DNA of 63,418 bases, counting the filler, from Aduncisulcus paluster (taxonomy: Eukaryota): NCBI GenBank assembly GCA_024181965.1. It is 12 parts of 12 records of this genome, joined end to end, with 100 filler letters (N's around TTAATTAATTAA, not from the genome) between each part and the next. Parts side by side here need not be neighbours in the genome. Positions count along the whole stretch, not along the records: positions 1 to 23,258 come from BQXS01000484.1; 11 more parts are not named here. One strand, given 5' to 3'. Below the pieces are notes generated by a model that saw only the letters and a program-made list of their open reading frames with translations, was not told the origin of the DNA and searched no databases. Positions 180 to 23,258 of the stretch are shown in pieces. Position 1 is the stretch's first letter. Every line of letters starts with the position of its first letter. Both the position numbers and the translations under genes were made by a program.

Positions 180-441
180 AAAATGACAAATAAAATCTTC
201 ATTCATTTAATTTGAGCATAAAAGTCGCTTTAAATTTATAAAAGTAACCTTAAAAGCATTTTTTCACTATAATTATGAACTATCACTTTCAAAATGTGAC
301 AAAAAACTCCCAAATACTTCCAATGTCTGATATCAAATAGTTACAATGTTTCAAATGCTTAAATCGAGTTATAAACACACAAATTCTTTAAAATAATATC
401 ATAAATGTTTAATTTAATGACTATTTCTGGCTGGAACATTT

Positions 442-484
442 TGCCGGTATTTTAAATACCGGCACCTGCCGGTCCCGGTATTTT
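442..484. repeat. Palindrome plus repeated CCGGT(A) motifs
   Basis: TGCCGGTATTT-T-AAATACCGGCA (11-bp arms, 442-464) is followed by TGCCGGT and CCGGTATTTT in otherwise AT-rich DNA. Confidence 0.6.
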
Positions 485-944
485 CGTTTTATCCCAATTT
501 CGAAATTGGTGACCAATAAAGTTTATTGGTGGGATATTTCATTTATTGCCTTTTTATTTCGAAATTACCCCCCTATTCGGAATATCCCCTATTGGTACTA
601 GGATCGCAAGACAGAATTGTTCAAAATATAAAATACAAATTAGCTTTGTATTTTTATGGTAATCAAAATCAACAAAATAACCAAAACCAATTGTTACTCC
701 CTGAAAATGGGTTTACAAAGACAATTGATTGAAAAAAAAACAAATGTGATAAAAATAACAATAATAATAATAAAACAATGTGAGAAAAACACAATAAATT
801 AATTCAATGATACCAAAAAAAGGGTCAACGGGTCCCTAATCAATAAAAATTGAAACGGATTCAATACAAAAGTTTCGTCGAAATCATTTCAACATTATTA
901 TCATTATTGCCAATTAAAATATCAACATAATAATGTTATTAAAA

Positions 945-3900
945 TTATTTAAATATAATTTTGGAGTAAGAATATAAAAACGAATGAGAAGGGTCATGAA
1001 TAGCCCTTGGAAATTTCTCAACAACTCCACTTCTTGCTAAACTGTCATCACTCTCGCCAAAATGCTCATGGGGCCCAATTAGAGAAGGCTCGAGGAACAA
1101 TTCTTCCACGCTTGCAACCAATTTCGCCTCAATAATCCACAATATTGGTTTCTCATCGATGAATGATCCAGACACTCGAAACAATTCTCTCTGGATAGCT
1201 GAAACAGAATATGAAGTTGATAAGACACATCTTTTGCAGATTCCAGGCGCTGGATAATATGAAAAGGACCAACGGGCAGGGGCAACAGAGTTGGATAGCA
1301 AAAACAACAACGTTCTTTCTTCTTTCAAGAGAAGGGAGTGGAAAACANNNNNNNNNNNNNNNNNNNNTCCAGACACTCGAAACAATTCTCTCTGGATAGC
1401 TGAAACAGAATATGAAGTTGATAAGACACATCTTTTGCAGATTCCAGGCGCTGGATAATATGAAAAGGACCAACGGGCAGGGGCAACAGAGTTGGATAGC
1501 AAAAACAACAACGTTCTTTCTTCTTTCAAGAGAAGGGAGTGGAAAACAGGATGAGGGAAAACATGCCCTTGAAAATGGGCAAAAATGAGTGCCTCTGTTC
1601 GTTTTGAAGGGAAATAGAACCAATTGAGAAGATTATTCATTGTTAGGTAGAAACTAGAAGATAACCCACACTCTTTTCTCACCAATGGGGTTTCTTCACG
1701 AATTCTCCTGCTTAATTCCATAACAATATCAATGACCATTAGATGAGATCTAATGACGAGTGGATGTGACAGTAAAAATATCAAAGAAAATGTAGAAGCA
1801 AACTTAACCGCAGCTTGTCCACTTGGTTTCTTCCCTTTCATTTTCAAAGATCTTCCAGGATTCAAAGAATATCCTCCTCCTCTCTCTTTCTGGGTGGAAC
1901 TACTTCCTCGACAAGGGGCATGGAATATATGTAATTGGAGCCCCGATTTGCTTGATATGATACCATATATGCCCTCAGACCTGATCATCGGGACTAACAT
2001 ATAATCATCGTCGTGTATGAATTCAAGACAATTGGGCAAAAGTACATTGAACTGATGACAAGAATTTGTGGAAAGATTGAGAACTTCCACTCGAACCGAA
2101 GAAATGGAACACAACGAGTGCATAATTATGAATGGTTTGCTGACACACATTCGTATCCTATTATGTTGAGATGGTGAAGACAAGAAGGGACATCCCAGGT
2201 GGCAAGTGGATATGCTAAGAGATCGGGGAGGTAACGAGGAATAAATGTAATTCTTTCCCATTTTCTTCCTTTTCCTTTTCACAATTTTTGAATGGTGTGT
2301 TTCGACAAAAAAGGGTACTTTCTCGGCAGATTTTAGACGTAAAACAATATATTCCTGTGAATCGCTTGAAATCATGGATAAATAATTTCCACAGGGCGAA
2401 AACGTTGGAATTATCCAATTCTTGAATGATTTTATAATGTCTTTCTTTCTTAAGTTTAAAATATGAGTTGTGAACATGCATTTCTTGCATGAACTCTGAG
2501 ATGCTGAAGAAGACGATGGCTTTGACTTCCTATCACGTGAGTGAATGGGAGTACAGCAACATACAGCAATCACATCTCTCCTTGCACTGATAACAGGCTC
2601 ACAAACGATACCGCCAATGACAACGCTCCATAGCCTTTGTGCAGCTACTCCATCGTCACTCTTGTATAGGGCTATTGTGCCCTCACGGACCTTATTATCA
2701 GAGAAGCAGGTGCAGATCAGACCTGAGTGGGATACGAGGATATGCGAGAGAAATTCATTGGTTAAGCTTGGGGATGAATGATTGATCTTCATGAAGCAAG
2801 AAGGTGTTGCAGAGACAACGAAAGAACTCGACGGAGAAAAAAGAGAATCATGGAGGGACATGCTTGTCATTGAAGGCAGAGAAGAAGCGTGGGGAGGGGA
2901 AAGGGATTTATATTTATATTTAAACCCAGATTTGCCATATCCACTTTGGAGCTCACCCATTGAAGATGTCCTTTTGGCTGAGATAAGCTTAAGAGAGACA
3001 GGCTTAGGGGAGATTGACTTTGGAGAAAGACGAGAACAAGAAGAAGGAGAACGAGACAAACGATGAGAAATACCACTCGATGAACACATCCAAGACACGA
3101 CATAATTGAGATTATCAGAATTGGACAAATACAATGCAGTTAACGACGGAATATGATACAAATTAGAGCGGAAAGAGCTTCCTGTCCCATTTCTCTCTCC
3201 TTTGGAATAATCGAAGCCACACACAGTAACGGAAGACCCACAAGGAGAAGTAGAGACAAATATCTTACCTTTTTGAAGGACTTGGAAAGGGAAATATGGG
3301 GGAAGATTACGAGGTACTGTTCCCTCGCTTCTTTCTTCATCTGCGTCTCCAGCTACATCATCTGCAATTTCTTCCGAAGAACAATCAGCATCTATTGCAT
3401 CAGAAGGAACAATGGAGGACGATTGAATGACAGGTTTCCCTAGTGCATAAGGCGAAGGGTTGTTCCAAGTTGTACATATGTGGGATTGACGATCGAGAGC
3501 TGTGACAGAATACCCAGAGTCAAGGATATTGGCAAGAATAATTGAGGTTGTGTGAGAAGCAGAAGGTGAAGGAAAAGGAAGGAAAGGATACTGACTTGGT
3601 AAAGATTTAAGAGAAGGAGAGAGAGAAAGAGGGAATGGTTCATCGTGTTTCTGAAAACATAAATGTGAGTGACATTNNNNNNNNNNNNNNNNNNNNCGAA
3701 GAACAATCAGCATCTATTGCATCAGAAGGAACAATGGAGGACGATTGAATGAAAGGTTTCCCTAGTGCATAAGGCGAAGGGTTGTTCCAAGTTGTACATA
3801 TGTGGGATTGACGATCGAGAGCTGTGACAGAATACCCAGAGTCAAGGATATTGGCAAGAATAATTGAGGTTGTGTGAGAAGCAGAAGGTGAAGGAAAAGG

Positions 3901-5163
3901 AAGGAAAGGATACTGACTTGGTAAAGATTTAAGAGAAGGAGAGAGAGAAAGAGGGAATGGTTCATCGTGTTTCTGAAAACATAAATGTGAGTGACATTCG
4001 AAGGGACAATCACACAGAACATCACTATCAAGGAAAGGATGAGAAAATGACTTCCTAGAGGTAGTTCTAGAGTCCTGTGCGATTGGAGAAACAGCAGACA
4101 CAAGGATAGGGTGTGAAATTGGTATTCTAAGAAACTTCTCAGCACCTGTTGAAGGAACAAAAAAGGACAGATATCCCTCAATATCATTGAAATATATAAT
4201 ATTCTGCATGGTACACTGTATTTTATGACACTTTGAGTGACATAATCGTTTGGATAGGAGTGAGCGCTTTCTAATGGCCTTTCGCCAAGTTTTAGTATCT
4301 AATAGATCAAGTTGAGTGACGGAAACTCTTCCATGTAAGGCGAATGCTGTGTCAAAACGTACGAAAAACAACAGCGATCCGTCTGGAGAGAAAGATGGGC
4401 ATGATGACAGACTTTCGAAGACAATTGGAATACCATCAATGGAATTAATGAGAAAAAAATCGGATTCGCCCTTTCTTTGCCGAAAAGAAAAGGCTATTAC
4501 ATCCAAAGTTGGGTGTAAATAAGGAATAGAATCAAATTCACAGTCATGACCAGTTATCTGCATGAGTATTTGACCCTGGCGGTTAAGCAATACTCCTCCT
4601 TCAGAATATCCCAAAATAAAAATGTTATCTTCCCTAGTGATTTTGATGGAGTGGACCTCACCGAAGGTATTAAGACATTTCCGTTCTTTCGTCTTGGTAT
4701 TAAAGAGAATAAGTCGTGTGTTATATGCAAGATCATCACGTCTCATATCGGTAAAACCATATACAATTCCGGGCTCTCCATCGCATATGGAAGGGGAGCA
4801 AGAAATTGGAACGGTGGTGGAGCTCATGTCTAAAAGAGTACAAGTCTTTTTAAATATATCATAGAGACGGATTTCAAATTCTTTCTTGGGTACAAACACG
4901 CATGCTACAAATATATTTTCTTTCGCTGCCGAGAAGGAAATTCTAATCTCATCGGTTTCTACAAACTCGGATTGCTTTTTGAAATCACAAATAAAATACT
5001 TTTCAAGATTATCATAAACAATAAACTTGTATTTGAGCTTTTTTTGATTGATTTCTTTCTGAAATATTTGAAATCTCCCACAAGGGGAAATTGTCTCACA
5101 TTGTGTGGAATTAATCGTTTGATACTTATTTAGGTGTTTAGATTGATTGCTTTTGGGTCCCAT
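945..5163 (-). CDS. Large (~1200 aa) protein with WD40/TolB-like beta-propeller motifs; one gene split by two gap duplications
   Basis: ORFs 3640-5169 and 945-3713 share a duplicated overlap around the N gap at 3677-3696; a second duplication flanks 1348-1367. Motifs ISPCG, PSFSPDGS and PTFSPCG are present. Confidence 0.65.
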
Positions 5164-5380
5164 CAACAAGTATATAAAAATTTATAATTTTGAAAATAGT
5201 GATAGCAACAGAAAAACGACATTTTTTCTTGACGTAGTTGCATTGTCCTGCCGCGTACAGCAATCCAATGATGTTGAGATAAATTGAAGATTTGTATATA
5301 ATTTGATTTTTGTTTCCCCTATTTGAAAAGTTTTTTCGATTCCCATTTATTATATATACTAATTAGTAAAAATTTTATGT

Positions 5381-5453
5381 GCCTACCTAGCTCAGTCGGT
5401 AGAGCGTTCGGCTCTTAACCGAACGGTCGTGGGTTCGAGCCCCACGGTGGGCG
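5381..5453 (+). tRNA. tRNA-Lys (anticodon CTT), intronless
   Basis: Acceptor stem GCCTACC/GGTGGGC with discriminator G, D arm TAGCTCAGTCGGTAGAGC, anticodon arm TTCGG-CTCTTAA-CCGAA, T arm GTGGG-TTCGAGC-CCCAC. Confidence 0.97.
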
Positions 5454-5466
5454 ATTTATATATTTC

Positions 5467-5636
5467 TGTGGCAAATGCTAGCTCTTGGAGCTTGCGAGCC
5501 TTCCATAACTCGCATACGAGGCTTATACGAGGTCATTGGAGACCTGAAACAATAAATTGTAACACAGAAGACTCTTCGGAGGTTGGCTGAATCACAATTT
5601 CAAAGGGAATCTTCTATTGTTTAGGTTATTGCCATA
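5467..5636 (+). ncRNA. Candidate structured ncRNA of unknown class, immediately downstream of tRNA-Lys
   Basis: Nested helices 5467-74/5629-36, 5542-54/5615-26 and 5555-60/5594-99; a cUUCGg hairpin at 5572-81; hairpins at 5480-92 and 5493-5514; no ORF. Confidence 0.5.
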
Positions 5637-5769
5637 TGTGGTGCTCCTGTAGTAAATTCCTCTGTATTATCCTTATTTTAATACATTTTTACGATTAATT
5701 ATCAGATTAATCACATTGAAAACTTCGTTTGAAATGACCAAAAAAACAGAAGTTTCAAACATATTTGTC

Positions 5770-7833
5770 TCAACCATAAGCCTTTATTGATCTTGTCTTC
5801 TTCCTTTTCTCAACTTTGCCTAATTCTTTAATCAGTTTCTTTGGTCCGTGTTCAATGATATCACTCATGGTAAGAGATTGGGATTTGTCACTGCCGGATG
5901 GAGATCCAAATCTTTTTGGAGGATTCATACATCCTACAGGGGAGAAGAAAGAAGGTGACCCCAAAGGTGAAGATGCTAATCCACTCATAATACAATCGCT
6001 GTTCCTCTTTAGCGAGATGGATGAGGATATATCTCGCATTGAAGACAGAGTCTGTGAGAGAGCAGTGCTTCTCGGTGAGAGAGAAAGCAGAGGACTGGAT
6101 GATGTGAGCAGGGTTTCAGTGTGTAAAGATGAAAATATAAGGGAAGGAGGCGATTGTGAGAGAGAAATGGGAGGAGAGATGTCAGAACAATCGATATCCT
6201 TCATTCCTCTCGATGTGAGACTACACTCTTCACTCTCATCCTCACAGCTGTCATCACAATAGCACGGACATTCACTCACACTCACACATGCAGAAGAGGA
6301 CTCAAAGGAATATGACACACATCCTGGGGGGGCAGCCGTTGATGGCAGAATTACACGACCATTCTTACTCCTCTTTCTGCCCTTATTGTTGTTGACAACA
6401 CACATAGGAAGGAGAGTTGAAGGAGAACGGGAAGAATGTAAGGACCCGTTCCACACACATTGAAGACATTCACCAGGTTTAAGAGAAATCCTTCCTCGTG
6501 ATAGTAACCATGGTACGGAGGAAGGAGATTTCTGAGGAGAACAAGAGCCTTGATCCACAGAAGAAGCATCGATTCTTCGCTTTTTATCTTCGATTTTACC
6601 AAGAACTCTTCGAGACACTTCATGGAGATGGTAAAAACACCCATAACTGCTTTGAGATGGTCCCAAATATTCAACAATAACATCACATGAAAGTTCATTT
6701 CTAAACGTGTACGAGAATACATGCTTGTGGTTGCTCTGAACACTTTCTTGTCTCCCACTCTGAGTACGGCCATATTCCTTCGTGTCGTCTCTCAGCTTTT
6801 TTGGACGTATGACTGTTCCCTTCACAACATCGTTGATCTGGGCTCGCATGCTACCAGGGCAAGATATACATATTTGGGCACTGTCGGCCATACTCTGGGA
6901 GACGGCAATGGATAGAGGGACATGGACAGGCTGGAATGGGAAGGGAGAGAGTTCAACATAGGAACAGTCAGCTTTCTTCTGGGTCTCAGTACAACTTGTA
7001 CTGGAGCTTGAAGCTCCAATGGGACTAAACCTACGCTTTCCAGAGAAGGAAGGAGAGGAAGAATGTGAGGACTTAGGAACAATTCGGCTCACAAATACAT
7101 TAGTTCTTTCACTTTTAGAGGATACAAGCTCGAGATGCCCAGATTTCTTCCACCAGTGATCGATAGCCTTCTGTTTGGAGTCAACGTGACCGAGATAGAC
7201 AGCATAAAATGGTTTCTCGCCGGCTTCAGGATCATATTCATAGCTTATTTCACTATTTAGAGCACTTACACTGAGTTTAAGATCAAGAATTCCTCTTGAT
7301 AATAGGTCACGACCAATGGCCATGCCACAAGTGTCCCACATTGAAGAAAAGAGGGAGAAAGAGGAAGAAGCAAAGACACTCAATGGTCTTCCGCGTTTTT
7401 TATGCTTTCGTTCACGTTCCTCATGTGAACTGGCCCCACTCATAGCAGAGGAAATTCCAATGATTTTGATGTGTGTTTCATAAGGCCCAATATGTGAAAC
7501 CGTATGATAAAGATTATGTTCAAGGAAAGAACGAGCGGAAGGAATAGAAATCCTAACATTGTGAAGAACACTGCCCATTGGATTATGAACACATACTAGA
7601 ACATGCCTTGGATTCGCTGGGTTGATAAGGATGAAGGAACTAACCTCATGGGGATGGACCCGATATTGTTTTTCAAGGAATAATCGAAGAGATGGAAGAG
7701 AAGAATAGAGGAGAAGGGTGTCAATATCTGACTCAATGGCTTCCTTCTGAATTCGAGACACATGGAAGGAATTGGCACTTTGAGATCGTGGTTTCCCGTG
7801 TTTATGACTCAGGGGGTCTTTTGGTTTGGACAT
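5770..7833 (-). CDS. Hypothetical Ser-rich protein (687 aa)
   Basis: Long uninterrupted ORF with an ATG start; no family recognised. Confidence 0.75.
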   Translation of the reverse strand: MSKPKDPLSHKHGKPRSQSANSFHVSRIQKEAIESDIDTLLLYSSLPSLRLFLEKQYRVHPHEVSSFILINPANPRHVLVCVHNPMGSVLHNVRISIPSARSFLEHNLYHTVSHIGPYETHIKIIGISSAMSGASSHEERERKHKKRGRPLSVFASSSFSLFSSMWDTCGMAIGRDLLSRGILDLKLSVSALNSEISYEYDPEAGEKPFYAVYLGHVDSKQKAIDHWWKKSGHLELVSSKSERTNVFVSRIVPKSSHSSSPSFSGKRRFSPIGASSSSTSCTETQKKADCSYVELSPFPFQPVHVPLSIAVSQSMADSAQICISCPGSMRAQINDVVKGTVIRPKKLRDDTKEYGRTQSGRQESVQSNHKHVFSYTFRNELSCDVIVEYLGPSQSSYGCFYHLHEVSRRVLGKIEDKKRRIDASSVDQGSCSPQKSPSSVPWLLSRGRISLKPGECLQCVWNGSLHSSRSPSTLLPMCVVNNNKGRKRSKNGRVILPSTAAPPGCVSYSFESSSACVSVSECPCYCDDSCEDESEECSLTSRGMKDIDCSDISPPISLSQSPPSLIFSSLHTETLLTSSSPLLSLSPRSTALSQTLSSMRDISSSISLKRNSDCIMSGLASSPLGSPSFFSPVGCMNPPKRFGSPSGSDKSQSLTMSDIIEHGPKKLIKELGKVEKRKKTRSIKAYG

Positions 7834-8550
7834 TTATACACTCAATGTTTGAAAATAAAATCACAAATTTGGAGAGGAGGGAAAATTCAAAATAGAGAAT
7901 AGCGAAATATATCAATACAAATAAAAAGAATAGAGATGAAACTCACAAGTTAATCAAAATAGACTGAAAAATTTGTACAAATCTTTGGAAGATTTAATGA
8001 CAGAATGTATTGAAAAAAAGTCTGATGAAATATGAATCTAAAATTATTTCAAACAAATTAGTTTCAGAGAAATTATTTCTAAGAACAAAATAACTAAACC
8101 ATTTGATGGAGTATCTGATTAACAATGCTGGAAGAGTTTGCTCGAACAACTATGGCTTGAACTCTTTTATGAGAGTAAAGGATTCCATTTTTGATCAATC
8201 AATTTAGCTGACATATCAAAAATAATAAAATTGTGTTAATCTATCTAGTCATTACAAGACAATCGAAAATCGAAAATCTAACTCCGACAAATAAGGATAA
8301 TAAAGCCTGCATAATAATAATCGGATTATTTGGTGATTGTATATATATTTTCTCTTTAATTTTTGAAAATGATTGTTGTTCGACACTTTCTCAACCTATT
8401 CATGATCAGGATCGGATTGTTTGATCAGCGCTACCCACTCTTTTCTTCGTATTTTCGAAAATGGAGACTTTACAATGACTTTTTTTTAACCACTTTTTAC
8501 TTATCGGGTATTAACCTCTGAAATTATTATAAAAAACCAGTATTACTCCA

Positions 8551-10116
8551 ATGTCTAACGAAAATGATTTCTACGTCTCTTTTGAGACTTCTCCTTTTGA
8601 TTTCACAACTTCTCAGTTGTATTCTTCTGCAACAGCCTCTTCTGATGAGTTTGCTTCCGGATTTAGCACTCCTTCTTTCTATGCTACTCAATCCACTTCT
8701 ACTCCTCTCTCCCAAAAGAGTACTGTGACCAGTTCCCAATATTCTGATGCTCATTCAACTCCTGAATTTGTCAGTCCTTTCCCTGCCATGTCCCCCGAGG
8801 AATTTTCTCAATGTGTGTCCTCTGTTCATCATGCTGTCCAAGAGGGTAAGAGTCTCTCTCGTACCTGGACCGCCATTGAGAATGCTCGCACTGTTGCCGA
8901 GCAACATGATCTTGACACAGAAAGAGAGATGGAGCACTCTTCTCCCCTACAATTCGGTGTTGTGGGCCCTTCCATGGGTTCTACTTTATTGTCCACTTTT
9001 GGAACTGGTCCTCTCCTTAAGGAGGAGGAAGCCACTTCTTTCTCCTACCCCAATGGTATGCCTCTTCCCCCTGCTTTTGGAATGCCNNNNNNNNNNNNNN
9101 NNNNNNCATATCTTGACACAGAAAGAGAGATGGAGCACTCTTCTCCCCTACAATTCGGTGTTGTGGGCCCTTCCATGGGTTCTACTTTATTGTCCACTTT
9201 TGGAACTGGTCCTCTCCTTAAGGAGGAGGAAGCCACTTCTTTCTCCTACCCCAATGGTATGCCTCTTCCCCCTGCTTTTGGAATGCCCCACTCTTCCCAA
9301 ACTCTTTCTCCAGCTTTTGCTTCAAGCGATGAGTTTGTTGATCCTTTTTGTGTGGAAGCTCAAGCTGCTGATGATCTCCACTATCCCACTTCAGATGGAG
9401 CTTCTTTTGAGTTGGTCTCTCCTTCCTTCTCTCCTGACTTTTCCCACATGTATTTGAGCAGTGGTTCCCGGAGTCACACTCACAGAACTGCTCACAGAGA
9501 ACTTTCTCCCAGTTTTGCCTCTGCTTCTCACGAGTATTCCCGTAATCCCGCCGCAGCGAGTGGAAATTTATGTGATATCCCCCTCCCCTGTTTTCATTCT
9601 GGTCTTGTAAGTGCCGAGGATGCTCACAGATGTATGTTCGAGCACTACCGTAAGACCTGTTCCTCTAGAAAGGGCTCTCGGTCGCTTGGCGGCCAAGACC
9701 ATCGTCAACAACGGGGCCGTGTGATGCGTGGTATATCTCATCAATCTTCTTCACCCAAGTCTTCCGCTGCTGGTCGTTGTCCTCGCGTACCTTCCAACAG
9801 GAACTTCCGTCCAAAGGGTTACTCTTATTCGACCACTGAGAACTCGTATCTTGTGGCTGTGAACCACGTGTTTGATACCCGTTCGTTGACAGAACCTCAA
9901 CTATGCCAAATAGCTTTCGCTTGTCTTGACAAAGAGAAGCTCAGTGAGAAGTTTGGTGCTGACAAGAAGCGCATATCTGTGTCCATGCGTGCTAAGTTCC
10001 GCAACTTACGCAACCGCGATGGAAAGAAGAAGAAAAAGGTTTCTGAATCGGAAGATTTTCATAAGGTATGTTCCCATGTGGAAACTCTTCTTGATGGCGT
10101 GTTACAGAAGAAATGA
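8551..10116 (+). CDS. Ser-rich protein with a C-terminal Myb/SANT(telobox)-like segment; ~454 aa once the gap duplication is removed
   Basis: Long ORF with about 200 bp duplicated around N 9087-9106. YSTTENSYLV...RISVSMRAKFRNLR resembles Myb helices 1 and 3. Confidence 0.7.
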   Translation: MSNENDFYVSFETSPFDFTTSQLYSSATASSDEFASGFSTPSFYATQSTSTPLSQKSTVTSSQYSDAHSTPEFVSPFPAMSPEEFSQCVSSVHHAVQEGKSLSRTWTAIENARTVAEQHDLDTEREMEHSSPLQFGVVGPSMGSTLLSTFGTGPLLKEEEATSFSYPNGMPLPPAFGMXXXXXXXXYLDTEREMEHSSPLQFGVVGPSMGSTLLSTFGTGPLLKEEEATSFSYPNGMPLPPAFGMPHSSQTLSPAFASSDEFVDPFCVEAQAADDLHYPTSDGASFELVSPSFSPDFSHMYLSSGSRSHTHRTAHRELSPSFASASHEYSRNPAAASGNLCDIPLPCFHSGLVSAEDAHRCMFEHYRKTCSSRKGSRSLGGQDHRQQRGRVMRGISHQSSSPKSSAAGRCPRVPSNRNFRPKGYSYSTTENSYLVAVNHVFDTRSLTEPQLCQIAFACLDKEKLSEKFGADKKRISVSMRAKFRNLRNRDGKKKKKVSESEDFHKVCSHVETLLDGVLQKK

Positions 10117-10254
10117 CACAAGAAATTGTGTAATTAATAAATTAGGATGAATTTTTTTTTTTGTTGAGTTATGGTTTTTTTATGATGAGCAGTTTTTGGC
10201 CAGATAGAACAATTGTTTCTTTCGAAATCGAGTTTTGAGAGGGAGTCTGGGGAA

Positions 10255-12453
10255 ATGAAGGTCAAAATTGAAAGGTGTATTTCTCCAGAAGCTGTTAAGA
10301 TGTTTCTTCTTGGCAAAAAAGTCCGATTAAATGATTATTTGACACTTCCTTGGGGTAAGGAGATTCAAATCATTGAATTGGATGGCTTTGATGAAGAAGA
10401 ATTAATTACAGTTGATACCAATATTATTTTTGAACAAAGTGACGATTTAGTTAGATCCGATAACCCTAAAGAAGAGCGGGTAACTTTATTAACTGAACCT
10501 TTTGTCGGATATGATGAAATAGTGGAAGAAATTTCATTATTTCTCGATTTAGCTTGTTTAAATCGGGATAAATGTCATGAATTGGGAGTTTTACCGCCCC
10601 GTGGTCTCCTAGTAAGTGGTCCTTCTGGTGTTGGAAAGAAATCTGCCGTTTTCGCTGCTGCCGAGAAAGTACAAGTGCACCCACTTATTATATCCCCAGA
10701 TATGCTTGCTAAAAGTGGTGTGGGAGAGGCAGAAGAGGAGTTAAGATCTATTTTTTCTTCCGCGAAAGAAGCGCTTGTTCCAACCTTCATTGTAATTTCT
10801 CAGACAGAATCGATATTTTCTCAGCGTGACTCTCTTTCAACCTCGTCTTCTTCGTCACATTCCCGACTTGTTGCCCAAATGCTCACTCTTTTGGATGGAA
10901 TTGATGTGAAAAAGAAAGGAAGAGAGGGAAGTATTTGTATTATTGCAATTTGTGAAGATGGAGAAAAAATTGATGCTGCTCTTAGACGACCTGGAAGACT
11001 TGATTGGGAAGTAGAAATGAATCTGCCAAATCAAACCCAAAGAGAGGTCATTTTCCGTCATTTTCTTGTCTCAGAAAAGGATAAACCGGCAAGAAAAGAT
11101 GACACATGTGCTCTATTGGCCCGGTATTCGGCTGGATTCTCACCCTCTGACATTCGTATTGCCTGTGATGTATGTGAAGGGTTAGAAGGGATGCCTGCCG
11201 TTCGAGAAATGCGCAAAAAAGTCCATGTACGTGGTATTGGGGAAGGAAGAGGCCATGAGACGAAGAAGACCCGTATTCAAGAAATGGTTGGAGTTTGTGG
11301 ATTACCGAACAATACGGCTGAAGCTGAAAAGAAGGGGGGAAAACAGCAATGGAAAGAAACGGAGAAACCTCCTGAAAAATGGCATATCATTGAATCATTT
11401 TTACCTTCAACAGACAGTAGTGTTTGCAAAAGTTCCGAAGAATTGTTTGGGTCTAAAACCAAACCATCTGTCGATTTCAAATCCACAAACAAATCCCCCG
11501 CTACTTCTCATTTTATGTCGATTGTTGATACCATCCTGCGACCTTTACTCGATGATATGGGTAGTATAGTTCAGGATAGTGTAACAACCCATGCTTCCTC
11601 ACGAGATACCCTAGGAGATCCACGAGATACCCTAGGAGATCCATCCACATCGCAAGTGGCTGAATGTCCTTCTTCTTCTCGATCGGTCATTCCTTCCTTC
11701 TCTCTGTCTGGATGTTTGTTATACGGTCCAAGTGGATGTGGGAAGAGTATGTTAGCACGATGTATCAAGACAGCCACCTCCGGAATGGTTGCTTTCTTTA
11801 CTGTAAATGGCCCGGAGCTCATATCTCCCTACGTGGGTCAGACCGAGGCCAATATCCGTGCTTTATTCAGCAAAGCTCGGCGTCACTCTCCAAGTATTAT
11901 CTTCCTTGATCAGATTGATAGTTTCTGCATGGACCGTGTGGGATCATCAGCTGGCGGTGCTGGGGTGGGAAGTCGGATTGTGGGAACCCTGTTAACTGAA
12001 ATGGATGGCATTGCCACTCGTGGAGGTGTTGTTGTGATCGCCGCATGCAACCACCCCTGGGATATAGATAAAGCATTGATTCGTCCTGGTCGTCTGGATC
12101 TTCATCTTTATTGCCGTGCTCCAGACTATTTTGAGAGGAAAACACTAATTACTCGGATGATCGGGACTACTGATTCATTATCTTCAGGAGATTCAAATGT
12201 TATCAATGAGATTGTCGAGAAAACGGATAAATTCAGTTACGCCGGCATTGTCGGGCTTTGTGAGGCAGCATTGAGACAGCGATTGGATCGTTGTTTACAT
12301 TTAGAAGAGATTTCAGGTGGAAAACCAATCGATCCTGAAAAATCTTGTGTTATTTTGGAAGATTTTGGCACTGGATTGCATGGTTTTAGAAAGAGTATTG
12401 ATAGTGTTGATGTAGAAATGTGGGAAGATTGGGAAGGAATCAATACTTCTTGA
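10255..12453 (+). CDS. CDC48/AFG2(SPATA5)-family double AAA-domain protein
   Basis: D1 has PPRGLLVSGPSGVGK, LVAQMLTLLDG and RRPGRLD. D2 has LLYGPSGCGKS, GPELISPYVGQTEANIR, LLTEMDG and IRPGRLD. First ATG is at 10255 (the ORF is open from 10213). Confidence 0.9.
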   Translation: MKVKIERCISPEAVKMFLLGKKVRLNDYLTLPWGKEIQIIELDGFDEEELITVDTNIIFEQSDDLVRSDNPKEERVTLLTEPFVGYDEIVEEISLFLDLACLNRDKCHELGVLPPRGLLVSGPSGVGKKSAVFAAAEKVQVHPLIISPDMLAKSGVGEAEEELRSIFSSAKEALVPTFIVISQTESIFSQRDSLSTSSSSSHSRLVAQMLTLLDGIDVKKKGREGSICIIAICEDGEKIDAALRRPGRLDWEVEMNLPNQTQREVIFRHFLVSEKDKPARKDDTCALLARYSAGFSPSDIRIACDVCEGLEGMPAVREMRKKVHVRGIGEGRGHETKKTRIQEMVGVCGLPNNTAEAEKKGGKQQWKETEKPPEKWHIIESFLPSTDSSVCKSSEELFGSKTKPSVDFKSTNKSPATSHFMSIVDTILRPLLDDMGSIVQDSVTTHASSRDTLGDPRDTLGDPSTSQVAECPSSSRSVIPSFSLSGCLLYGPSGCGKSMLARCIKTATSGMVAFFTVNGPELISPYVGQTEANIRALFSKARRHSPSIIFLDQIDSFCMDRVGSSAGGAGVGSRIVGTLLTEMDGIATRGGVVVIAACNHPWDIDKALIRPGRLDLHLYCRAPDYFERKTLITRMIGTTDSLSSGDSNVINEIVEKTDKFSYAGIVGLCEAALRQRLDRCLHLEEISGGKPIDPEKSCVILEDFGTGLHGFRKSIDSVDVEMWEDWEGINTS

Positions 12454-13012
12454 TGCGTCATAATTTATGATTTACATTGAGTTTGACCTTTCCAATATTG
12501 GAACTATTGTTTCCCTGTGGAACATCTTTTGAACCAACTTACAAATATGTTTAATTATTCAAGACCTTTCCGCATTGATGTATGATCTTTGAAGTCAGGA
12601 CTCCTATATATAAACAATGATTTTACTATAATGAGTGGGACTAGAAAAAAGTGTTTGGCAAAAGTGTATATTCATGTCTATCTTTTGAGTCCAAAGAATT
12701 ATCATATCCCAATATTTCAGGTAGAAATATCAGATAATTGATCTCTTCAATTTCATGCGATAGAATTTCAAAGAGATAAGCATAGAAAGAATACAAAAAA
12801 CATGAATATGAGAAAAGAAAAGGGAACCTTAAGCTTTTAACCAAAACAACAACACGCCATAACATTAAATATGAATACAAAAAAAAAATCAGGTTCTAAA
12901 TCGAAATATTTCCAGAATGCCAATAAAAAAAATAGATAGAAAACAATATAAATGAAACAAAAATAGAATTGGTTGGTCGGATTTATAATTATTTTATATT
13001 GTTAGAAATTTC

Positions 13013-16000
13013 TCACTCTTCAAAAGCTACTTCGCCTCCTTCAGATTCTCCACTGACACTTTCAGTTTCAGTGTCACTTTCCTCTTCCTCCTCTTCCTCC
13101 TCTTCCTCTTCCATCATTTCTGAAGTCTCATCATAGTCGCCATCATCATCAATATCGTCAATTGATATACTTTCAGGCGTATCAATGACACTGCTTACCT
13201 GGATTTCAGTTATTTCCCCTTCTTCTTTCTTCTTCTCCACTTCAAAAANNNNNNNNNNNNNNNNNNNNGTTGGTCGGATTTATAATTATTTTATATTGTT
13301 AGAAATTTCTCACTCTTCAAAAGCTACTTCGCCTCCTTCAGATTCTCCACTGACACTTTCAGTTTCAGTGTCACTTTCCTCTTCCTCCTCTTCCTCCTCT
13401 TCCTCTTCCATCATTTCTGAAGTCTCATCATAGTCGCCATCATCATCAATATCGTCAATTGATATACTTTCAGGCGTATCAATGACACTGCTTACCTGGA
13501 TTTCAGTTATTTCCCCTTCTTCTTTCTTCTTCTCCACTTCAAAAAGCATCAGCAGCTTTCGAGCAGCACCACGAATTTCACCTCCAGTTTCATCTGCCCT
13601 GTGGCATGAACAACATGACCATGTGGGAGCAAGAACAACCTTCAATTTCGAACGAGTGGGAAGGGTCATTGTGGTTTGGGTTGCAAACCCAACACTGCGA
13701 ATTGCACTCACACCAAAGTCCATGGTTTCAGCTCCTGTATTCTTGTCTTTCGTAGTCATATAAGCCATTAATGAATCTGTATTGGTTGATCTTGAATGAT
13801 CTTGGATCAAAAACTCGCCTCTCTCAATTTCAGCCAAAATATCTCGCTCTCCTTCAGTCTTTCTGAAAACAGCATCATGGAGTGATTGTGCTATTTCCCT
13901 GTCAGAAGAACTATCTGAAGCTTCAATTTCAGAAACGGTAGCAGTTTCCGATTTCTTTTTCTTGAAACCTTCAAACCAACTCGCTTTCCTTGAAGAACTT
14001 GCTTCTCCAACAGAGCCAGATACTGAACTTCCCCGTTGCTGCTCTTCCATTTTCTTCTTCACTATCATTTGATGATAGATCTCTCTTTGCTTTGCGGTCA
14101 AATCACGGCATACTTCTGCCTCGGAAACTGCAGCTTCACAACCCTTTTCTCCTTCAAGAGCACTGTAAGGAGTGGTAAGTTCTTCTTCGCTCAATAAACT
14201 GACTTCGCTTGTTTCATCGTATCCCCTAAGTTCATCCAATCGTCCTTGTGGGAACATTTTCTGATCTGTCGTACCACTGGTAGCACCACTAAGAAGACCA
14301 CTGCCAATAGCACCACTTTCATCCCGGGCCACATACATAGCTCCATCTTCAAACACTCTATCACCTTCTTGCACCTGCTGAGGAGAATCAAAGAAGTGGA
14401 TCATGTGTTCACTTTGTTCGCTAGTTTGAACGAAACTCTCTCTTGATGCATCAAATGAGAGAACAGGATTATCAGGATTCTCAGCTTCTTGTTTGACCTT
14501 TTCAGATCCGAACCATCCAATAACATTTTTGAATAGTCCTCTCTTTTCTCCCTTACTTGTGTTTGTGAAGACATGGGTTCCAGAGGATGTCGAGATTCTT
14601 GATAACGAATCCTCAGCAACACTACCAGGTGCAGTCATGGGGATACCTGATTGGGAATGAATGGAAGAGGCACTTGAAGTTCGCGTTATTCTCTTTTCCT
14701 GTTTAGCTTGGTTTTTCATGTATTTATGGAGTTCTCTGTGACGTTCCTCAATCAACTTCCGTTTTGTCTTCATGCGCTTGAGTTCGTGCTTTTCTTCTTC
14801 TTCAATTCCCTTGTTAACAATTTGAACCATTCTTTTCACCTTCACACAACGTGCAATGATACATCCAATGAAGATAAATAAGCATATTATTGAGAGGAAA
14901 GAAGCTACAAAGGAAAATAGAGGGACAAAATGTCCCAACGCAAATACTTGAGTTGATTCTACTTCTTCAAGAATTATAATATCAAGAGATGGCATGTTTG
15001 AAATTGAATTCAAAGAAGCATCAGAAGCAGAAGGAGTAAGACGATTGTTAACAACATATTGGTGGAATTCATCGGGAACATTGGGTTCCAAATTGAAAGC
15101 GAAGTACATAATTTGATCAAATCCCAATTTATAATAATAATATATTTCACTAAAAGTGGGAATTGAAATGGAAGAAAGGGAACTTGAACTCATTGAAGCC
15201 GAGGAAAGATACAGTTCGACTTCAGTCAAGTTAGAGGCATGAGAAGAAATGGGTGCAATGGATTCAACATTGTTTGAAGCTGAGTCATCTTCTGCTTCTT
15301 CTTCATCTGCTTCTTCTTCTTCTTCTTCTTCTTCTGCTTCTTCTTCTTGGGCATAAATACTTTCATCATGGGTGCTTACGAAAACAACCTCTTCTTTTCC
15401 CCACATTTTTACATCTCCAATTGAAATTGTTGGAATAAGATGGACCGAGAATAGAGCTGGGATAAAGGATAACATTGGAGAAATATATCCAGAAGCAATA
15501 ACAATAGAATCATCATCAGCACCTTGAGGTTCATCCACAGTCTCATCAATAGATACATCGGAGAGTTCTGTGTTAATATGAGTAATATCAAGTTGGACAG
15601 CAAAATCAAGGTCAGTAAAATCTATATCCAAATCAACAATTCCATCTGTTGCAGAAGAATATAGTGATAATTCCTTGGCATTCGATGATAAAATAAGAGG
15701 ACAATCAGTATTAGAACTCTCAACAAGAGAAGATGACACGCCAATTGATGAATCTGAGACCAAACAACCAGCCTTGTCAATACACATTGGATACACAGAT
15801 GAGGCTAGAAGAGGGAAGGCGTATAAGGCAAGATCATCAACAGGAATTGATGACGGAAATGGGTATAAAGTCGAAACTTTATAAACAACTTCAACATCAA
15901 TATCAGAAATCTCACCAATATATTCTTCATTTGCGTCTCCATCAGCTTGACGTTGTATTTCATCAACAGCTCTTGAAATAAGTTCCCGAACAACTTCCGA

Positions 16001-19000
16001 TTCAACACTAATTGAACATGCCACTTCATCCTCGCCATTTCCACCACTACATGTCACCACATCATATCCATCAACAGTTCTAGAATACGAATCACGTTCA
16101 TAAACATCATCAGCAACCTCTGGATCCTCAGTCAATCCCAAAGCTGAACAAACAGAAGACACTCCACTGCTTTTAATATAGGGAATTCGGTACTTAATAT
16201 CGGGTAATGGTGCAGTCTGTTCCGTCAGTCCATCTTTTCGGATGACTTGCTTTTCCCAAGATCCATCTTCTTGCTCCAAAAGATATTCACAAACACCATT
16301 ACACTCGGTAACTGTCGTACGAGGTGCAGTATTGTATGTTGCAGCGTAAAGTTCAGGAGCAGTTGGACTCATCATTGAATTGAAGAAAGCGTATGAAATA
16401 GCGGATGGAACATNNNNNNNNNNNNNNNNNNNNAATACGAATCACGTTCATAAACATCATCAGCAACCTCTGGATCCCCAGTCAATCCCAAAGCTGAACA
16501 AACAGAAGACACTCCACTGCTTTTAATATAGGGAATTCGGTACTTAATATCGGGTAATGGTGCAGTCTGTTCCGTCAGTCCATCTTTTCGGATGACTTGC
16601 TTTTCCCAAGATCCATCTTCTTGCTCCAAAAGATATTCACAAACACCATTACACTCGGTAACTGTCGTACGAGGTGCAGTATTGTATGTTGCAGCGTAAA
16701 GTTCAGGAGCAGTTGGACTCATCATTGAATTGAAGAAAGCGTATGAAATAGCGGATGGAACATATTTCTTATTTGTCACATCGCTCATATCCACAGTTCT
16801 CCAAACGATTGCACGTGTCTTTCCAATGAGATATCCATCACTAATAATGTGATCATGGACATGAGAATGCGGAGTTGTGGCCAATAAAGAAGGCTGGAAC
16901 GAGAAACTTAAATCGACCAATTCTTCAGCCTTTGAAGATGGAGATGAGGCAGCCAATATAGCCAAGGCATCATCATCTAACCAATATTGGATTTCTATGG
17001 ATTCCAATAAGGTATTCATTGAAGATGAGGAGGATGCACCGGATTCGACAAAGATTTGGGCCAAAGAATCACATTGAAAAGCCCATTGGGATCCATCAAT
17101 TCCAGTTGTCTGAGTGTGAACAATTTGATATGAAGAATCGGGTTCGAGAGGAGATTCCCCAATAAAACTTGGCGCATTCCACTCATCTTCAGAATATGCA
17201 ATTTGAGAATCTTCAAACTCAGAACAATGCCCACTACTGAGAAAGAGGCTGTGAATATTCGTAAATATGTTGGTGTCACAGATATAACACTGGGTCGAAG
17301 GCAAAGGTATTTGATTACGGACTAGAGACAAATCATATGAAGAAGCTGAAATGAAAGAAGAAGATGTGAGAGAAGACACACTATCAGCTGGAATAGATTG
17401 AGCAAGAGTACTAGAATACACAGAAATAGACATCGGTTCAGAGGGAAGGAAATATACAGCTCCACCACTCCATATTCCAATAGCTAATGTCTTTTCAGAA
17501 TCACCAACGACAACATCATTTTCAGTTTCATAATCTTCAATGTCTTTAAGCCAATCTGATGGAAAATCAATACCGAAATAGGAATAGCCGATATCTTGAA
17601 GGNNNNNNNNNNNNNNNNNNNNCAGATATAACACTGGGTCGAAGGCAAAGGTATTTGATTACGGACTAGAGACAAATCATATGAAGAAGCTGAAATGAAA
17701 GAAGAAGATGTGAGAGAAGACACACTATCAGCTGGAATAGATTGAGCAAGAGTACTAGAATACACAGAAATAGACATCGGTTCAGAGGGAAGGAAATATA
17801 CAGCTCCACCACTCCATATTCCAATAGCTAATGTCTTTTCAGAATCACCAACGACAACATCATTTTCAGTTTCATAATCTTCAATGTCTTTAAGCCAATC
17901 TGATGGAAAATCAATACCGAAATAGGAATAGCCGATATCTTGAAGGTAGGAACCATGATAAACTTTCCTGATAATTGGAGAAGAAGAATAAACAATGTCA
18001 CCTTCTTCAATTGCAGAAGTGAAATCATCACTATCAGCAAGATATAATGCTTCAGCAATTGATGTTGGAGCTATTGATGCTGGCATTTCGTCTGATAACG
18101 ATTCGAGGATTCTTTCAGCAATCGATAATGTTGTGATAACAATACTAACCGACATATCTCTCGCGACAGTATCTGTCACATCAATAGGAAGGGTAACTTT
18201 GATACCACTAACGTAAGTTGCTGGGAACGAAATAGTCAAAGCATCAGAGTTGCTAACAGTTTCAATAATTGGTCGTGGAAGATGAGGCTTCATCAAAATA
18301 CGAATCTCGGATAGATCCCCGTCGACACCAACATTATCCAGAGATATAAGTTCCATTGGACTTGTTGTTAGATCGTAGGCATCTCCACCAATTGTGAATC
18401 CGCGAGCAGAATCATAGGCAGTAGAAGTGAATGGATCAAGACAGAATTGCTGAAGTTGTAGAATCCAAGTTCCAGCGGGAAGATCCTCAAGATCTGAACT
18501 AATGGCAGACACGATAGTTGAGGGGACCAGAGCAGTATAATTATCATCAGAATTGGGAACTCCAATAGAAAATGATTGGTTGTCAACCGTATGAGTATGA
18601 GTGAATGCAGTATCCAAACACTCTTCAGCATTATCGAGAAGAGAATCGATATCGTCAGAATCTCCGCCATTCCCAGCAAGTTCTACAGCATCTTCCATGT
18701 ATTGTTGGGCCTGATAGTAAAGTTGATTCACCAGGTGTGCAGGAACAGGGTAGAACATGAGATCACATTCCAACGAAGTGCGAGTATTTGAATATATGAT
18801 GGACATAGATTCGTCACACAAGTAGAGAGTCTCCTCGGTCGTTGGAAATGCAGGAACAGTTGCTGTGAGAGGATTGCTAGCAATTGATTGCCTTGTTAGT
18901 TCAAGATTAACAGAGAGTTGAGTCGGATCAGGGAAATATTTTGTTGAAGTGGTGCATCCATCAACAGAGCCTAGTTGTTTGGTGGGTTGATCAAGATCAG

Positions 19001-22249: not shown

Positions 22250-23033
22250 TTTACCGTATTTATTATACATATGATCTAGTTTTAATTCTTAAATAGTTTG
22301 TGCCTTGATACAATTATTGAGAAGAATCTGAAGAAATTTCAAAGAAATTTTAGAAATTATCTATTATTTTAACCAAACTCAGTATCAGGATGATCGTGTC
22401 TTTATCAAGGCTACGCATGGCATGATATTCATTCTGGATGTCGATTCTGTGCGTTCAGGTATGGGAAGTATGATGACATGTTCTTATGATATTCACTAAC
22501 AGGGATAAGGTCTAATTTGGAAGATAAATTTCTCTTTCGATCCATCAAAACAATGGAGAATGCACAAATCAACCTTTATGATCTTACAAGTGGAGATCAT
22601 TCTCAACATAACATTAACATCACAATGTAAGCTGTTCTTCAGGTTGTTTGGTTTGAAATAAATATTATTTAAATTTAATTCACTATTTTTATGCTGATTT
22701 ATACACCCATTTTACGCTATTTCATGAAAATTTTCACTCTAAATCACCAATTACCGTTTCCCCTTCTTGAAAATAATATTGTCGCATGATTGTATGTATT
22801 TATTTATTGTATTTTGTCATTATTGTGTTATATATATATCATTGAATGAGTTGTTGTTTTAACAATCATCTGGCCAACTTTTTACTGAACTTATTTTGTA
22901 ATGTCTCCTTGTTTTCACGATTTTCATTTATATTTCATTTTATTGTGACCATCTTATTTTATAATAACGATATTCTCATAACATTTCATTAATATCCTTT
23001 CTTAACTCCTCTAGCCAATGGCCAGTAGCCATC

Positions 23034-23258
23034 ATGGTTGATCCTATCAGGAATCCTGAATTTGTTTGTAGAGAAATTGGAATAGGAGAGTGCCCAATTC
23101 CTCTTGATGATCCCGAACTTGTTAAACCGGACTTTCCAAGTATTACTGGTAGTCTTTATACTACAGATTCTGAAGGAAATACAGAGGATGATAAAGAGCT
23201 TCCAGAGGTGAAGCAAAACATATTTTTCAGGGAATCAAGAATAACGACTTGTTTTCAA
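23034..23258 (+). CDS. 5' fragment of a hypothetical protein (PEF...CPIP.D.P...PDF motif), cut by the contig end
   Basis: ORF runs into the linker. The motif resembles an expanded lineage-specific family as I recall it (unverified). Confidence 0.45.

What the first reader, a model, noticed from the sequence alone, without database searches (positions are those of the whole stretch)
5381..5690. Terminator-less tRNA-Lys followed by an unassigned, highly structured ~200-nt RNA (candidate dicistronic Pol III unit)
Seen: no run of four or more T follows the tRNA until 5676-79 and 5686-90, which is unusual in this T-rich intergenic DNA. The intervening sequence has no ORF and folds into a closed multi-branch structure. 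It has a closing stem UGUGGCAA/UUGCCAUA, hairpins AGCUC/GAGCU and UGCGAG/CUCGCA, a direct repeat AUACGAGG, and a long arm ACCU(G)AAACAAUA/UAUUGUUUAGGU enclosing AAUUGU/ACAAUU capped by cUUCGg. G-U pairs and the UUCG loop favour the + strand, and UGGA/UCCA loop pairing is possible. Established: tRNA-snoRNA dicistrons released by RNase Z occur in plants. Inference: this is a tRNA-driven ncRNA that I cannot match to U1-U6, U3, SRP or a telomerase template. It has only a weak echo of RNase P/MRP conserved regions (GGAGACCUGA...UUUAGGUUA before the closing stem).
Basis: partly seen in the sequence, partly recalled or inferred. Interest (0 to 1): 0.75.

Follow-up and report, generated by a model that had tools for sequence, protein, structure and literature searches.

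The report
tRNA-Lys gene with long unterminated trailer
A normal lysine tRNA gene is followed by about 220 bases without a standard stop signal for its polymerase, so a folded extra RNA may be made with it, but nothing yet shows that this RNA exists or has a function.

Summary
The tRNA-Lys(CTT) gene at 5381-5453 is real (Rfam 68.1 bits). Every quoted motif is at its stated place, and no frame is open for more than 50 codons.

"Highly structured" holds only in part:
- The full 226-nt trailer folds no better than shuffles (z -0.97).
- The 170-nt core 5467-5636 gives z -3.4, but the opposite strand gives -3.8.
- Four other intergenic loci in this window score better.

A T4-free gap of 222 nt occurs by chance in 14-18% of cases. 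What does stand out is a GC-richer block without homopolymer runs: 9 of 934 control windows match it. It starts 13 nt after the tRNA and ends about 10 nt before the T runs.

No Rfam family matches, RNase P/MRP included. I found no homologue, no second copy and no usable expression data.

Best reading (0.35): a tRNA-led Pol III dicistron like Yarrowia tRNA-Trp-RUF70. Close rivals are an unstable read-through trailer and a relic sequence. Interest is low to moderate.

The parts
5352..5360 (+). TATATATAC, a TATA-like element ending about 21 nt upstream of the tRNA. It may help Pol III initiation.
   Evidence: Read from the sequence. Its function is an inference and was not tested.
5381..5453 (+). 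tRNA-Lys (anticodon CTT) gene with internal A-box-like (TAGCTCAGTCGG) and B-box-like (GGTTCGAGCCC) sequences. It is the only promoter-bearing part of the proposed unit.
   Evidence: ARAGORN. Rfam RF00005 68.1 bits, full length 1-71. Naming the boxes rests on recalled consensus.
5454..5466 (+). AT-rich spacer A-TTTATATATTT-C. It has two T3 runs and no T4. It could be a weak, degenerate terminator, and it is the expected RNase Z cleavage zone.
   Evidence: Sequence. Orioli 2011 (PMC3141230, passages read) reports that an isolated T3 is nearly inactive in human Pol III, while some interrupted T-rich elements terminate in part.
5467..5636 (+). Folded core of 170 nt, closed by UGUGGCAA (5467-5474) pairing with UUGCCAUA (5629-5636).
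   Evidence: MFE -50.8 kcal/mol, z -3.41. Closing-stem pair probabilities 0.56-1.0. GC 0.42-0.43.
5480..5492 (+). Hairpin AGCUC-UUG-GAGCU.
   Evidence: Pair probabilities 0.85-0.97.
5514..5532 (+). Direct repeat AUACGAGG-CUU-AUACGAGG (8 + 3 + 8 nt).
   Evidence: The 22-nt two-unit pattern has no other match in the window at up to 3 mismatches.
5542..5626 (+). Long arm ACCU(G)AAACAAUA pairing with UAUUGUUUAGGU.
Evidence: Outer-arm pair probabilities 0.19-0.73.
5637..5675 (+). 3' extension. It stays GC-richer up to about 5665 and contains GUAGUA at 5649.
   Evidence: GC profile. Motif scan.
5676..5690 (+). First canonical Pol III terminator candidates: T4 at 5676-5679 and T5 at 5686-5690, with ACA at 5683-5685 between them.

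Best explanation
This is a tRNA-led Pol III transcription unit. TFIIIC and TFIIIB assemble on the A and B boxes inside tRNA-Lys(CTT). Pol III meets no T4+ run after the tRNA, so it reads on for about 222-237 nt to T4 (5676-79) or T5 (5686-90). RNase Z cuts after the discriminator base at about 5453/5454. That releases the tRNA and a 3' RNA of about 225-235 nt. The 170-nt core of that RNA (5467-5636) is closed by an 8-bp stem, and its 3' end is an oligo-U tail of the kind that La protein binds.

On this reading the 3' RNA is a lineage-specific small RNA without a promoter of its own, like RUF70 behind tRNA-Trp in Yarrowia lipolytica.

Shown here: the tRNA, the lack of a T4+ run, the position of the T runs, the composition island and a moderately stable fold. 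Inferred: read-through, RNase Z release, stability and any function.
For: - The tRNA gene is canonical.
- There is no T4+ on the + strand from 5454 to 5675, then T4 and T5 within 15 nt.
- The space between the tRNA and the T runs is filled by a GC-richer block without homopolymer runs. It starts 13 nt after the tRNA and ends about 10 nt before T4. Only 9 of 934 other non-ORF windows, at 3 places, combine GC of at least 0.40 with no T4+ or A4+ run.
- The core folds better than shuffles: z -3.41, 1 of 200 as good. The closing stem and first hairpin have pair probabilities mostly above 0.85.
- There is no coding frame.
- The 13-nt spacer lies within the 4-17 nt reported for Y. lipolytica tRNA-5S units. 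RUF70 was found by the same logic, a missing T-track behind a tRNA gene. In that compact genome every other tRNA gene had a feasible terminator within 50 nt, apart from a few tandem tRNA genes (PMC2566860, passages read).
- In the one measured case here, the poly(A) tail starts 17 nt after the end of an AATAAA. The two such signals after the convergent gene (5788-83 and 5682-77) would therefore place its mRNA end outside the core.
Against: - No RNA evidence of any kind was obtained for the segment.
- No Rfam family matches.
- The whole trailer has an unremarkable z of -0.97.
- The core's z is matched or beaten by four other intergenic loci in the same 63 kb.
- The opposite strand folds equally well. 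That is what inverted repeats at the DNA level would give.
- A 222-nt T4-free gap arises by chance in 14-18% of cases.
- The spacer TTTATATATTT could terminate part of the transcription. Many human tRNA genes lack a T4 within 50 bp yet have no functional downstream RNA (PMC3141230, abstract and passages).
- There is a single copy in the window, so no paralogue or orthologue was available to test covariation.
Confidence: 0.35

Rival explanations
1. Pol III does read through, but the long 3' trailer is a by-product. It is cut off by RNase Z and degraded. The fold and the composition have no function.
For: - The missing-terminator evidence is the same as for the main reading.
- Long read-through trailers without a known function are common in human cells and yeast (PMC3141230, abstract and passages; PMC4937561, title and abstract seen only in the listing).
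- The fold is no better than at four other intergenic loci.
- The ensemble is poorly defined.
Against: The composition island fills the gap between the tRNA and the T runs quite exactly. It is rare among non-ORF windows: 9 of 934. Neutral AT-rich spacer would be expected to drift toward the 0.31 median GC and to acquire T runs. The median distance to a T4+ run is 71 nt.
Confidence: 0.28
2. The block is a relic unrelated to the tRNA's transcription. It could be a decayed mobile element or gene fragment that landed next to a tRNA gene. The tRNA then terminates inefficiently at the degenerate TTTATATATTT, or is a weakly used gene copy.
For: - Both strands fold equally well, as nested DNA inverted repeats would.
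- Read from the sequence: the core can be framed as TG...CA (5469-5634) with 6-bp terminal inverted repeats TGGCAA/TTGCCA. Four bases later comes TGGTGCTCC, which would be complementary to a tRNA 3' end ...GGAGCACCA. This resembles an LTR followed by a primer-binding site.
- An LTR-retrotransposon pol fragment (RVT_1 E 6.7e-30, RT_RNaseH_2 E 2e-12) lies at 62335-63416.
- LTR elements of yeasts and Dictyostelium are known to target tRNA genes (recalled, not checked).
Against: - No similarity to any other part of the window. The longest shared word with the core is 11 nt.
- No target-site duplication could be checked.
- The LTR and primer-binding-site reading rests on short motifs with no statistical test.
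- The copy number in the genome is unknown, because no genome is held.
Confidence: 0.22
3. The segment is the 3' untranslated region of the convergent gene 5770-7833, so it is transcribed on the - strand.
For: - The gene ends at 5770 and points toward the segment.
- The - strand folds at least as well (z -3.84).
- One transcript contig in this run extends about 590 nt past a stop codon elsewhere (10130-13047, against the stop at 12453).
Against: - The one poly(A) site seen follows an AATAAA by 17 nt and gives a 43-nt 3' UTR.
- On the - strand the candidate signals are AATAAA at 5788-5783 and ATTAAA at 5682-5677. These would end the mRNA at about 5766 or about 5660, short of the core 5467-5636. 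This is an inference from a single example.
Confidence: 0.08
4. The segment is an independent small-RNA gene with its own promoter on either strand, and it sits beside the tRNA by chance.
For: The composition island and the fold.
Against: - Only 13 nt separate it from the tRNA, which leaves no room for an upstream promoter on the + strand.
- It has no internal B box, no Sm site and no C box (recalled consensus patterns).
- No Rfam match.
Confidence: 0.05

Closest known systems
tRNA-Trp(CCA)-RUF70 dicistronic Pol III genes of Yarrowia lipolytica (Acker et al. 2008, PMC2566860)
   Same: A genuine tRNA gene leads. There is no T-track directly behind it. An orphan structured RNA of unknown function and without internal promoter follows, and then the T-track. 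In both cases the unit was noticed by looking for missing terminators (passages read).
   Different: RUF70 is about 70 nt, and a stem abuts the tRNA 3' end. It exists in 13 copies with compensatory changes and was shown by northern blot and RT-PCR. Here the trailer is about 225-235 nt with a 170-nt core. One copy is known, there is no covariation data and there is no expression data.
tRNA-Gly-snoR43 (plants) and tRNA-5S rRNA (Y. lipolytica) dicistrons
   Same: The same architecture and the same proposed release by RNase Z. Spacers are short: 4-17 nt in the tRNA-5S units, against 13 nt here.
   Different: In those units the downstream RNA belongs to a known family (C/D snoRNA or 5S rRNA). Here there is no C box, the only CUGA motifs are internal, and no Rfam family matches.
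Human tRNA genes with distant or non-canonical terminators (Orioli et al. 2011, PMC3141230)
   Same: No T4+ run near the tRNA 3' end, degenerate T-rich elements in the flank, and a long 3' trailer predicted.
   Different: Those trailers are mostly heterogeneous by-products. Here the trailer coincides with a compositionally distinct, foldable block bounded by T4 and T5.
RPR1 and SNR52 of S. cerevisiae (tRNA-like leader promoters)
   Same: A promoter-less RNA is expressed from upstream A and B boxes and is cut away from its leader. This is mentioned in PMC2566860.
   Different: The leader there is not a functional tRNA, and the products are RNase P RNA and a C/D snoRNA. Neither family matches here.

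Membership tests
tRNA-led dicistronic Pol III unit | A functional-looking tRNA gene with internal promoter lies at the 5' end | tested here: met
   ARAGORN tRNA-Lys(CTT). Rfam 68.1 bits against a gathering score of 29.
tRNA-led dicistronic Pol III unit | No Pol III terminator between the tRNA and the second RNA, and a T-track right after the second RNA | tested here: inconclusive
   No T4+ from 5454 to 5675, then T4 at 5676-79 and T5 at 5686-90. The spacer holds TTTATATATTT, whose terminator strength in this organism is unknown. The gap itself has a chance probability of 0.14-0.18.
tRNA-led dicistronic Pol III unit | A short spacer between the tRNA 3' end and the second RNA | tested here: met
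   13 nt (5454-5466) before the closing stem. The published range is 4-17 nt.
tRNA-led dicistronic Pol III unit | A single precursor transcript and a stable processed second RNA | not testable with these tools
   No RNA holder is on record. The only run could be laid once, at coarse bins.
tRNA-led dicistronic Pol III unit | The second RNA is conserved (paralogues or orthologues) with compensatory changes | not testable with these tools
   No genome is held. No other copy in the window. Zero matches in 2 metagenome scans. No look-alike in earlier windows.
RNase P / RNase MRP RNA | A match to the family covariance models, and CR-I / CR-V sequences forming P4 | tested here: not met
   No hit with E up to 10 on either strand in three permissive scans. 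The recalled CR-I and CR-V consensus patterns are absent.
Box C/D snoRNA (as in plant tRNA-snoRNA units) | A C box RUGAUGA near the 5' end and a D box CUGA near the 3' end, joined by a terminal stem | tested here: not met
   No C box, even relaxed. CUGA occurs only at 5544 and 5587, inside the fold (consensus recalled). No snoRNA family covers the segment.
Box H/ACA snoRNA | Hairpin, ANANNA hinge, hairpin, then ACA 3 nt from the 3' end | tested here: inconclusive
   ACA at 5683-5685 sits just before T5, and ANANNA motifs exist. I could find no 3' hairpin ending next to that ACA by inspection, and the fold does not end one there. No Rfam H/ACA family matches.
Spliceosomal snRNAs, SRP RNA, telomerase RNA, vault and Y RNA | A match to the family models; an Sm site, ACAGAGA and similar motifs where applicable | tested here: not met
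   No hit on the segment. No Sm site and no ACAGAGA. The weak U4 hit (13.6-17.6 bits) lies upstream at 5319-5401 and runs into the tRNA.
Second tRNA (tandem tRNA gene) | A cloverleaf detectable by tRNA finders | tested here: not met
   ARAGORN finds only tRNA-Lys at default settings. Only low-threshold spurious calls appear at -ps70/80. No similarity to the tRNA beyond a 7-mer: local alignment score 14 against a shuffle mean of 13.6.

The most novel reading that the evidence does not exclude
The trailer is a stable, essential, lineage-specific Pol III RNA made only as the 3' passenger of tRNA-Lys.

The boldest version that my evidence does not exclude is a ciliate-style telomerase RNA: a stem closing the 5' and 3' ends, hairpins 5' of an unpaired AUACGAGG-CUU-AUACGAGG (1.7 copies of an 11-nt unit, the layout of a telomerase template), a long distal arm and a U-run end. 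The comparison with ciliate telomerase RNA is recalled and was not tested.

Against it, the implied repeat AAGCCTCGTAT is not G/T-rich, and no such array is in the window.
Probability: 0.03. Interest if true: 0.85.

Novelty: new member of a known kind. Interest (0 to 1): 0.3.

Why it matters
tRNA-led Pol III dicistrons with a non-tRNA passenger are known from only a few lineages: plants, Yarrowia and a herpesvirus (PMC2566860, passages read). This organism appears very divergent. Most of its large ORFs have no Pfam domain, and the proteins I searched have no close relatives. Covariance models often miss housekeeping RNAs in such organisms.

If the passenger RNA is real, it would be another independent case of a promoter-less RNA carried on a tRNA gene, and a candidate for one of the unrecognised small RNAs of this lineage. 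If it is not real, the locus is a plain example of a tRNA gene with a distant terminator.

Tried and rejected
- **Expression.** The look-up of sequencing runs listed no RNA holder on record. It listed only one run, X1, of uncertain kind. The listed contig over the convergent gene spans 5780-8371, and the pieces over 5337-5779 were not among the 8 shown of 1,115 laid. This says nothing about a short non-polyadenylated RNA. A narrower lay would have been the better use of that call.
- **Whole genome.** None is held. The terminator habits of other tRNA genes and the copy number of the segment could therefore not be checked.
- **Homologues.**
  - Two metagenome scans gave 0 matches each: one with a 26-nt stretch of the core and one with the whole tRNA.
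  - No look-alike stretch in earlier windows, and no notes on this genome.
  - The upstream flanking protein has no homologue at E 0.001.
  - The best non-self hit of the AAA ATPase is 40% identical over 28% of its length.
  - No covariation test was therefore possible.
- **U4 snRNA.** From memory, GAGGCUUAUACGAGG resembles the 5' stem-loop of U4. The Rfam U4 model gives no hit on the segment, and I could not form the required stem next to the bulge by inspection. Rejected.
- **RNase P/MRP, SRP, U1-U6, hammerhead and other ribozymes.** No Rfam hit.
- **RAGATH-27 (20.6 bits, E 1.1-4.2).** This is a bacterial family with a gathering score of 76. Chance.
- **Decayed duplicate of the tRNA, or a second tRNA.** Rejected.
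- **Short protein or terminal exon.** No open frame.
- **Strand choice from G-U pairs or the UUCG loop.** Not supported. The MFE is -50.8 (+) against -48.4 (-). G-U pairs are 8 of 53 (+) against 5 of 59 (-). The cUUCGg hairpin has P 0.00.
- **Taxonomic placement.** The protein atlas gave only 'Eukaryota, kinesin'. I did not pursue this further.
- **Supplementary files** of the papers were not consulted.

Full report
**What is there**

ARAGORN and Rfam agree on one tRNA in the 63 kb window: tRNA-Lys(CTT) at 5381-5453 on the + strand, 68.1 bits against a gathering score of 29. The gathering-threshold Rfam scan of the whole window finds nothing else.

Downstream, the first T4+ runs on the + strand are T4 at 5676-5679 and T5 at 5686-5690. 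The 13 nt right after the tRNA read A-TTTATATATTT-C, with only T3 runs. No frame over 5455-5770 is open for more than 50 codons from stop to stop, apart from one 75-codon frame that starts upstream of and runs through the tRNA.

**Is the structure more than chance?**

- The whole trailer 5455-5680 folds no better than dinucleotide shuffles on the + strand: z -0.97, with 35 of 200 as good. The - strand gives -2.18.
- Cutting to the stretch closed by UGUGGCAA/UUGCCAUA (5467-5636) gives z -3.41, with 1 of 200 as good. The reverse complement gives -3.84, with 0 of 200. My own shuffle runs on the + strand scattered between -2.8 and -4.3.
- Those boundaries were chosen by eye, so I ran a matched control.
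  - I ran RNALfold on both strands of all 21 non-ORF segments (14,365 nt). This gave 663 closed local structures of 120-200 nt.
  - The 110 best by a composition regression were each scored with 50 shuffles.
  - The target was the 7th row and the 5th distinct locus, behind 57364-57556 (z -5.95), 432-623, 30608-30732 and 55223-55371.
  - A fold of this quality turns up roughly once per 3 kb of this genome's intergenic DNA.
  - The closing stem, the AGCUC/GAGCU hairpin and the outer long arm are supported, with pair probabilities 0.56-1.0, 0.85-0.97 and 0.19-0.73.
  - UGCGAG/CUCGCA has about 0.1. AAUUGU/ACAAUU and the cUUCGg hairpin have 0.00.
- G-U pairs (8 of 53 on +, 5 of 59 on -) and energies (-50.8 against -48.4) give no strand preference.

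**Is the missing terminator more than chance?**

As plain sequence statistics, no. P(no T4+) is 0.14 in shuffles of the 222-nt stretch, and 17.6% of 5,469 random positions in other non-ORF DNA are at least 222 nt from the next T4+.

The weight of the observation comes from biology. Pol III genes normally end in a T run just downstream. In the compact genome of Yarrowia, every tRNA gene had a feasible terminator within 50 nt, except those followed by a second co-transcribed gene (PMC2566860). In human, by contrast, a large set of tRNA genes lack a T4 within 50 bp. Degenerate T-rich elements give partial termination there, while an isolated T3 is nearly inactive (PMC3141230). Which regime applies here is unknown, because no other Pol III gene of this organism is at hand.

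**What does stand out**

The composition does. The stretch from about 5467 to about 5665 is a GC-richer island (0.40-0.53 in 40-nt windows) between the AT-rich spacer and an AT-rich 3' flank (0.17-0.25).

A 180-nt window here has GC 0.42-0.43. Of 934 other non-ORF windows:
- 4.3% reach GC 0.41;
- 3.9% lack both T4+ and A4+ runs;
- nine windows, at three places, combine GC of at least 0.40 with no such run.

The island begins 13 nt after the tRNA and stops about 10 nt before the T4.

**What it is not**

- Three permissive Rfam scans (5300-5800, 5000-5900 and 5455-5700, both strands, E up to 10) give no match on the segment except RAGATH-27, a bacterial family, at 20.6 bits against a gathering score of 76.
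- A weak partial U4 hit (13.6-17.6 bits) lies upstream and runs into the tRNA. It did not extend when more sequence was given.
- Consensus patterns that I recalled for the C box, Sm site, ACAGAGA, B box, CR-I and CR-V are absent. CUGA occurs only inside the fold. ACA at 5683-85 precedes the T5, but I found no hairpin ending next to it.
- It is not a second tRNA, nor a decayed copy of the first.
- It has no other copy in the window.

**Surroundings**

The segment lies in a 588-nt non-ORF gap between two minus-strand ORFs, 3640-5169 and 5770-7833. Neither has a Pfam domain, and the first has no homologue.

The organism is a eukaryote with kinesin, HORMA and AAA genes and an LTR-retrotransposon pol fragment. 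It has no close relatives in the protein collection.

Run X1 behaves like RNA. Depths range from 10 to 231,542, and a poly(A) loose end follows an AATAAA by 17 nt at 10159. By that single example, the convergent gene's mRNA would end near 5766 (AATAAA at 5788-83) or near 5660 (ATTAAA at 5682-77). Either end is outside the core. This is an inference.

**Most likely mechanism**

I put 0.35 on a tRNA-led Pol III dicistron whose passenger is a stable orphan RNA. Pol III is recruited by the tRNA's internal promoter and reads to 5676-5690. RNase Z then separates the tRNA from a U-tailed RNA of about 225-235 nt with a 170-nt folded core.

The rivals are:
- 0.28: the same read-through, but the trailer is unstable.
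- 0.22: a relic, for instance a mobile-element remnant. This is suggested by the equal fold on both strands and by a TG...CA frame with 6-bp inverted ends followed by a motif resembling a primer-binding site. Those motifs were read from the sequence and not tested.
- 0.08: the 3' UTR of the convergent gene.
- 0.05: an independent gene.

The first two readings share the read-through step, so about 0.63 of the total weight is on Pol III reading into the segment.

**Comparison with known systems**

The architecture works like the tRNA-snoRNA units of plants and the tRNA-5S and tRNA-Trp-RUF70 units of Yarrowia (PMC2566860). RUF70 is the closest, being an orphan passenger found through a missing T-track.

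Membership in that kind is met for three features:
- a genuine leader tRNA;
- a short spacer;
- a T-track after the passenger.

It is inconclusive for the absence of any terminator in between. It could not be tested for co-transcription, stability and conservation.

Membership in RNase P/MRP, C/D snoRNA, snRNA, SRP and telomerase families was tested and not met.

**Verdict**

The interpretation can be neither confirmed nor refuted with the data available. If real, this is a new member of a known kind. Interest is 0.3.

Noticed in passing
window 8551-10116 (+), poly(A) at 10159: This ORF encodes a Ser/Thr-rich 521-aa protein without a Pfam domain. It is by far the most deeply covered stretch in run X1: bins reach 231,542 against 10-85 elsewhere. 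An AATAAA at 10137-42 is followed 17 nt later by a poly(A) loose end.
   Followed up: partly
window 3375-4012, 16084-16764, 17279-17946, 50539-50978, 60260-60863; also around the N gap inside 8551-10116: These are two-copy tandem duplications of 230-350 bp at 93-100% identity. At 16128-16479 and 17278-17623 the X1 contig skips one copy, and the protein from 8551-10116 repeats itself on both sides of its N gap. They look like scaffolding or gap artefacts that inflate ORFs rather than real repeats.
   Followed up: partly
window 432-623: A cluster of perfect short palindromes (for example GCCGGTATTTTAAATACCGGC and CCAATTTCGAAATTGG). Fold z is -4.2 to -5.0 on both strands. It lies in the first bin, which has raised depth (840), several loose ends and two base differences in X1.
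   Followed up: no
window 57364-57556 (+): The strongest local fold among the non-ORF segments (z -5.95, 50 shuffles). It is AT-rich and lies in the 2.5-kb non-ORF stretch upstream of the retroelement-like ORFs.
   Followed up: no
window 62335-63416 (+): An LTR-retrotransposon pol fragment that runs off the window end: RVT_1 (E 6.7e-30), then RT_RNaseH_2 (E 2e-12).
   Followed up: partly
window 13024-13244, 23000-23200, 23520-23700: Besides the target, these are the only non-ORF places that combine GC of at least 0.40 with no T4+ or A4+ run. They may be unrecognised exons, gene fragments next to N gaps, or other RNAs. No Rfam match.
   Followed up: no
window 5230-5289: A second small GC-rich bump (0.42-0.50) lies upstream of the tRNA, between it and the start of the divergent ORF 3640-5169. 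It contains CCAATGATG.
   Followed up: no
whole window: Few of the large ORFs tested have a Pfam domain: 2 of the 14 scanned. The flanking protein has no homologue, and the best non-self match of the AAA ATPase is 40% identical over 28% of its length. This points to a very divergent eukaryote with few or no sequenced relatives.
   Followed up: partly
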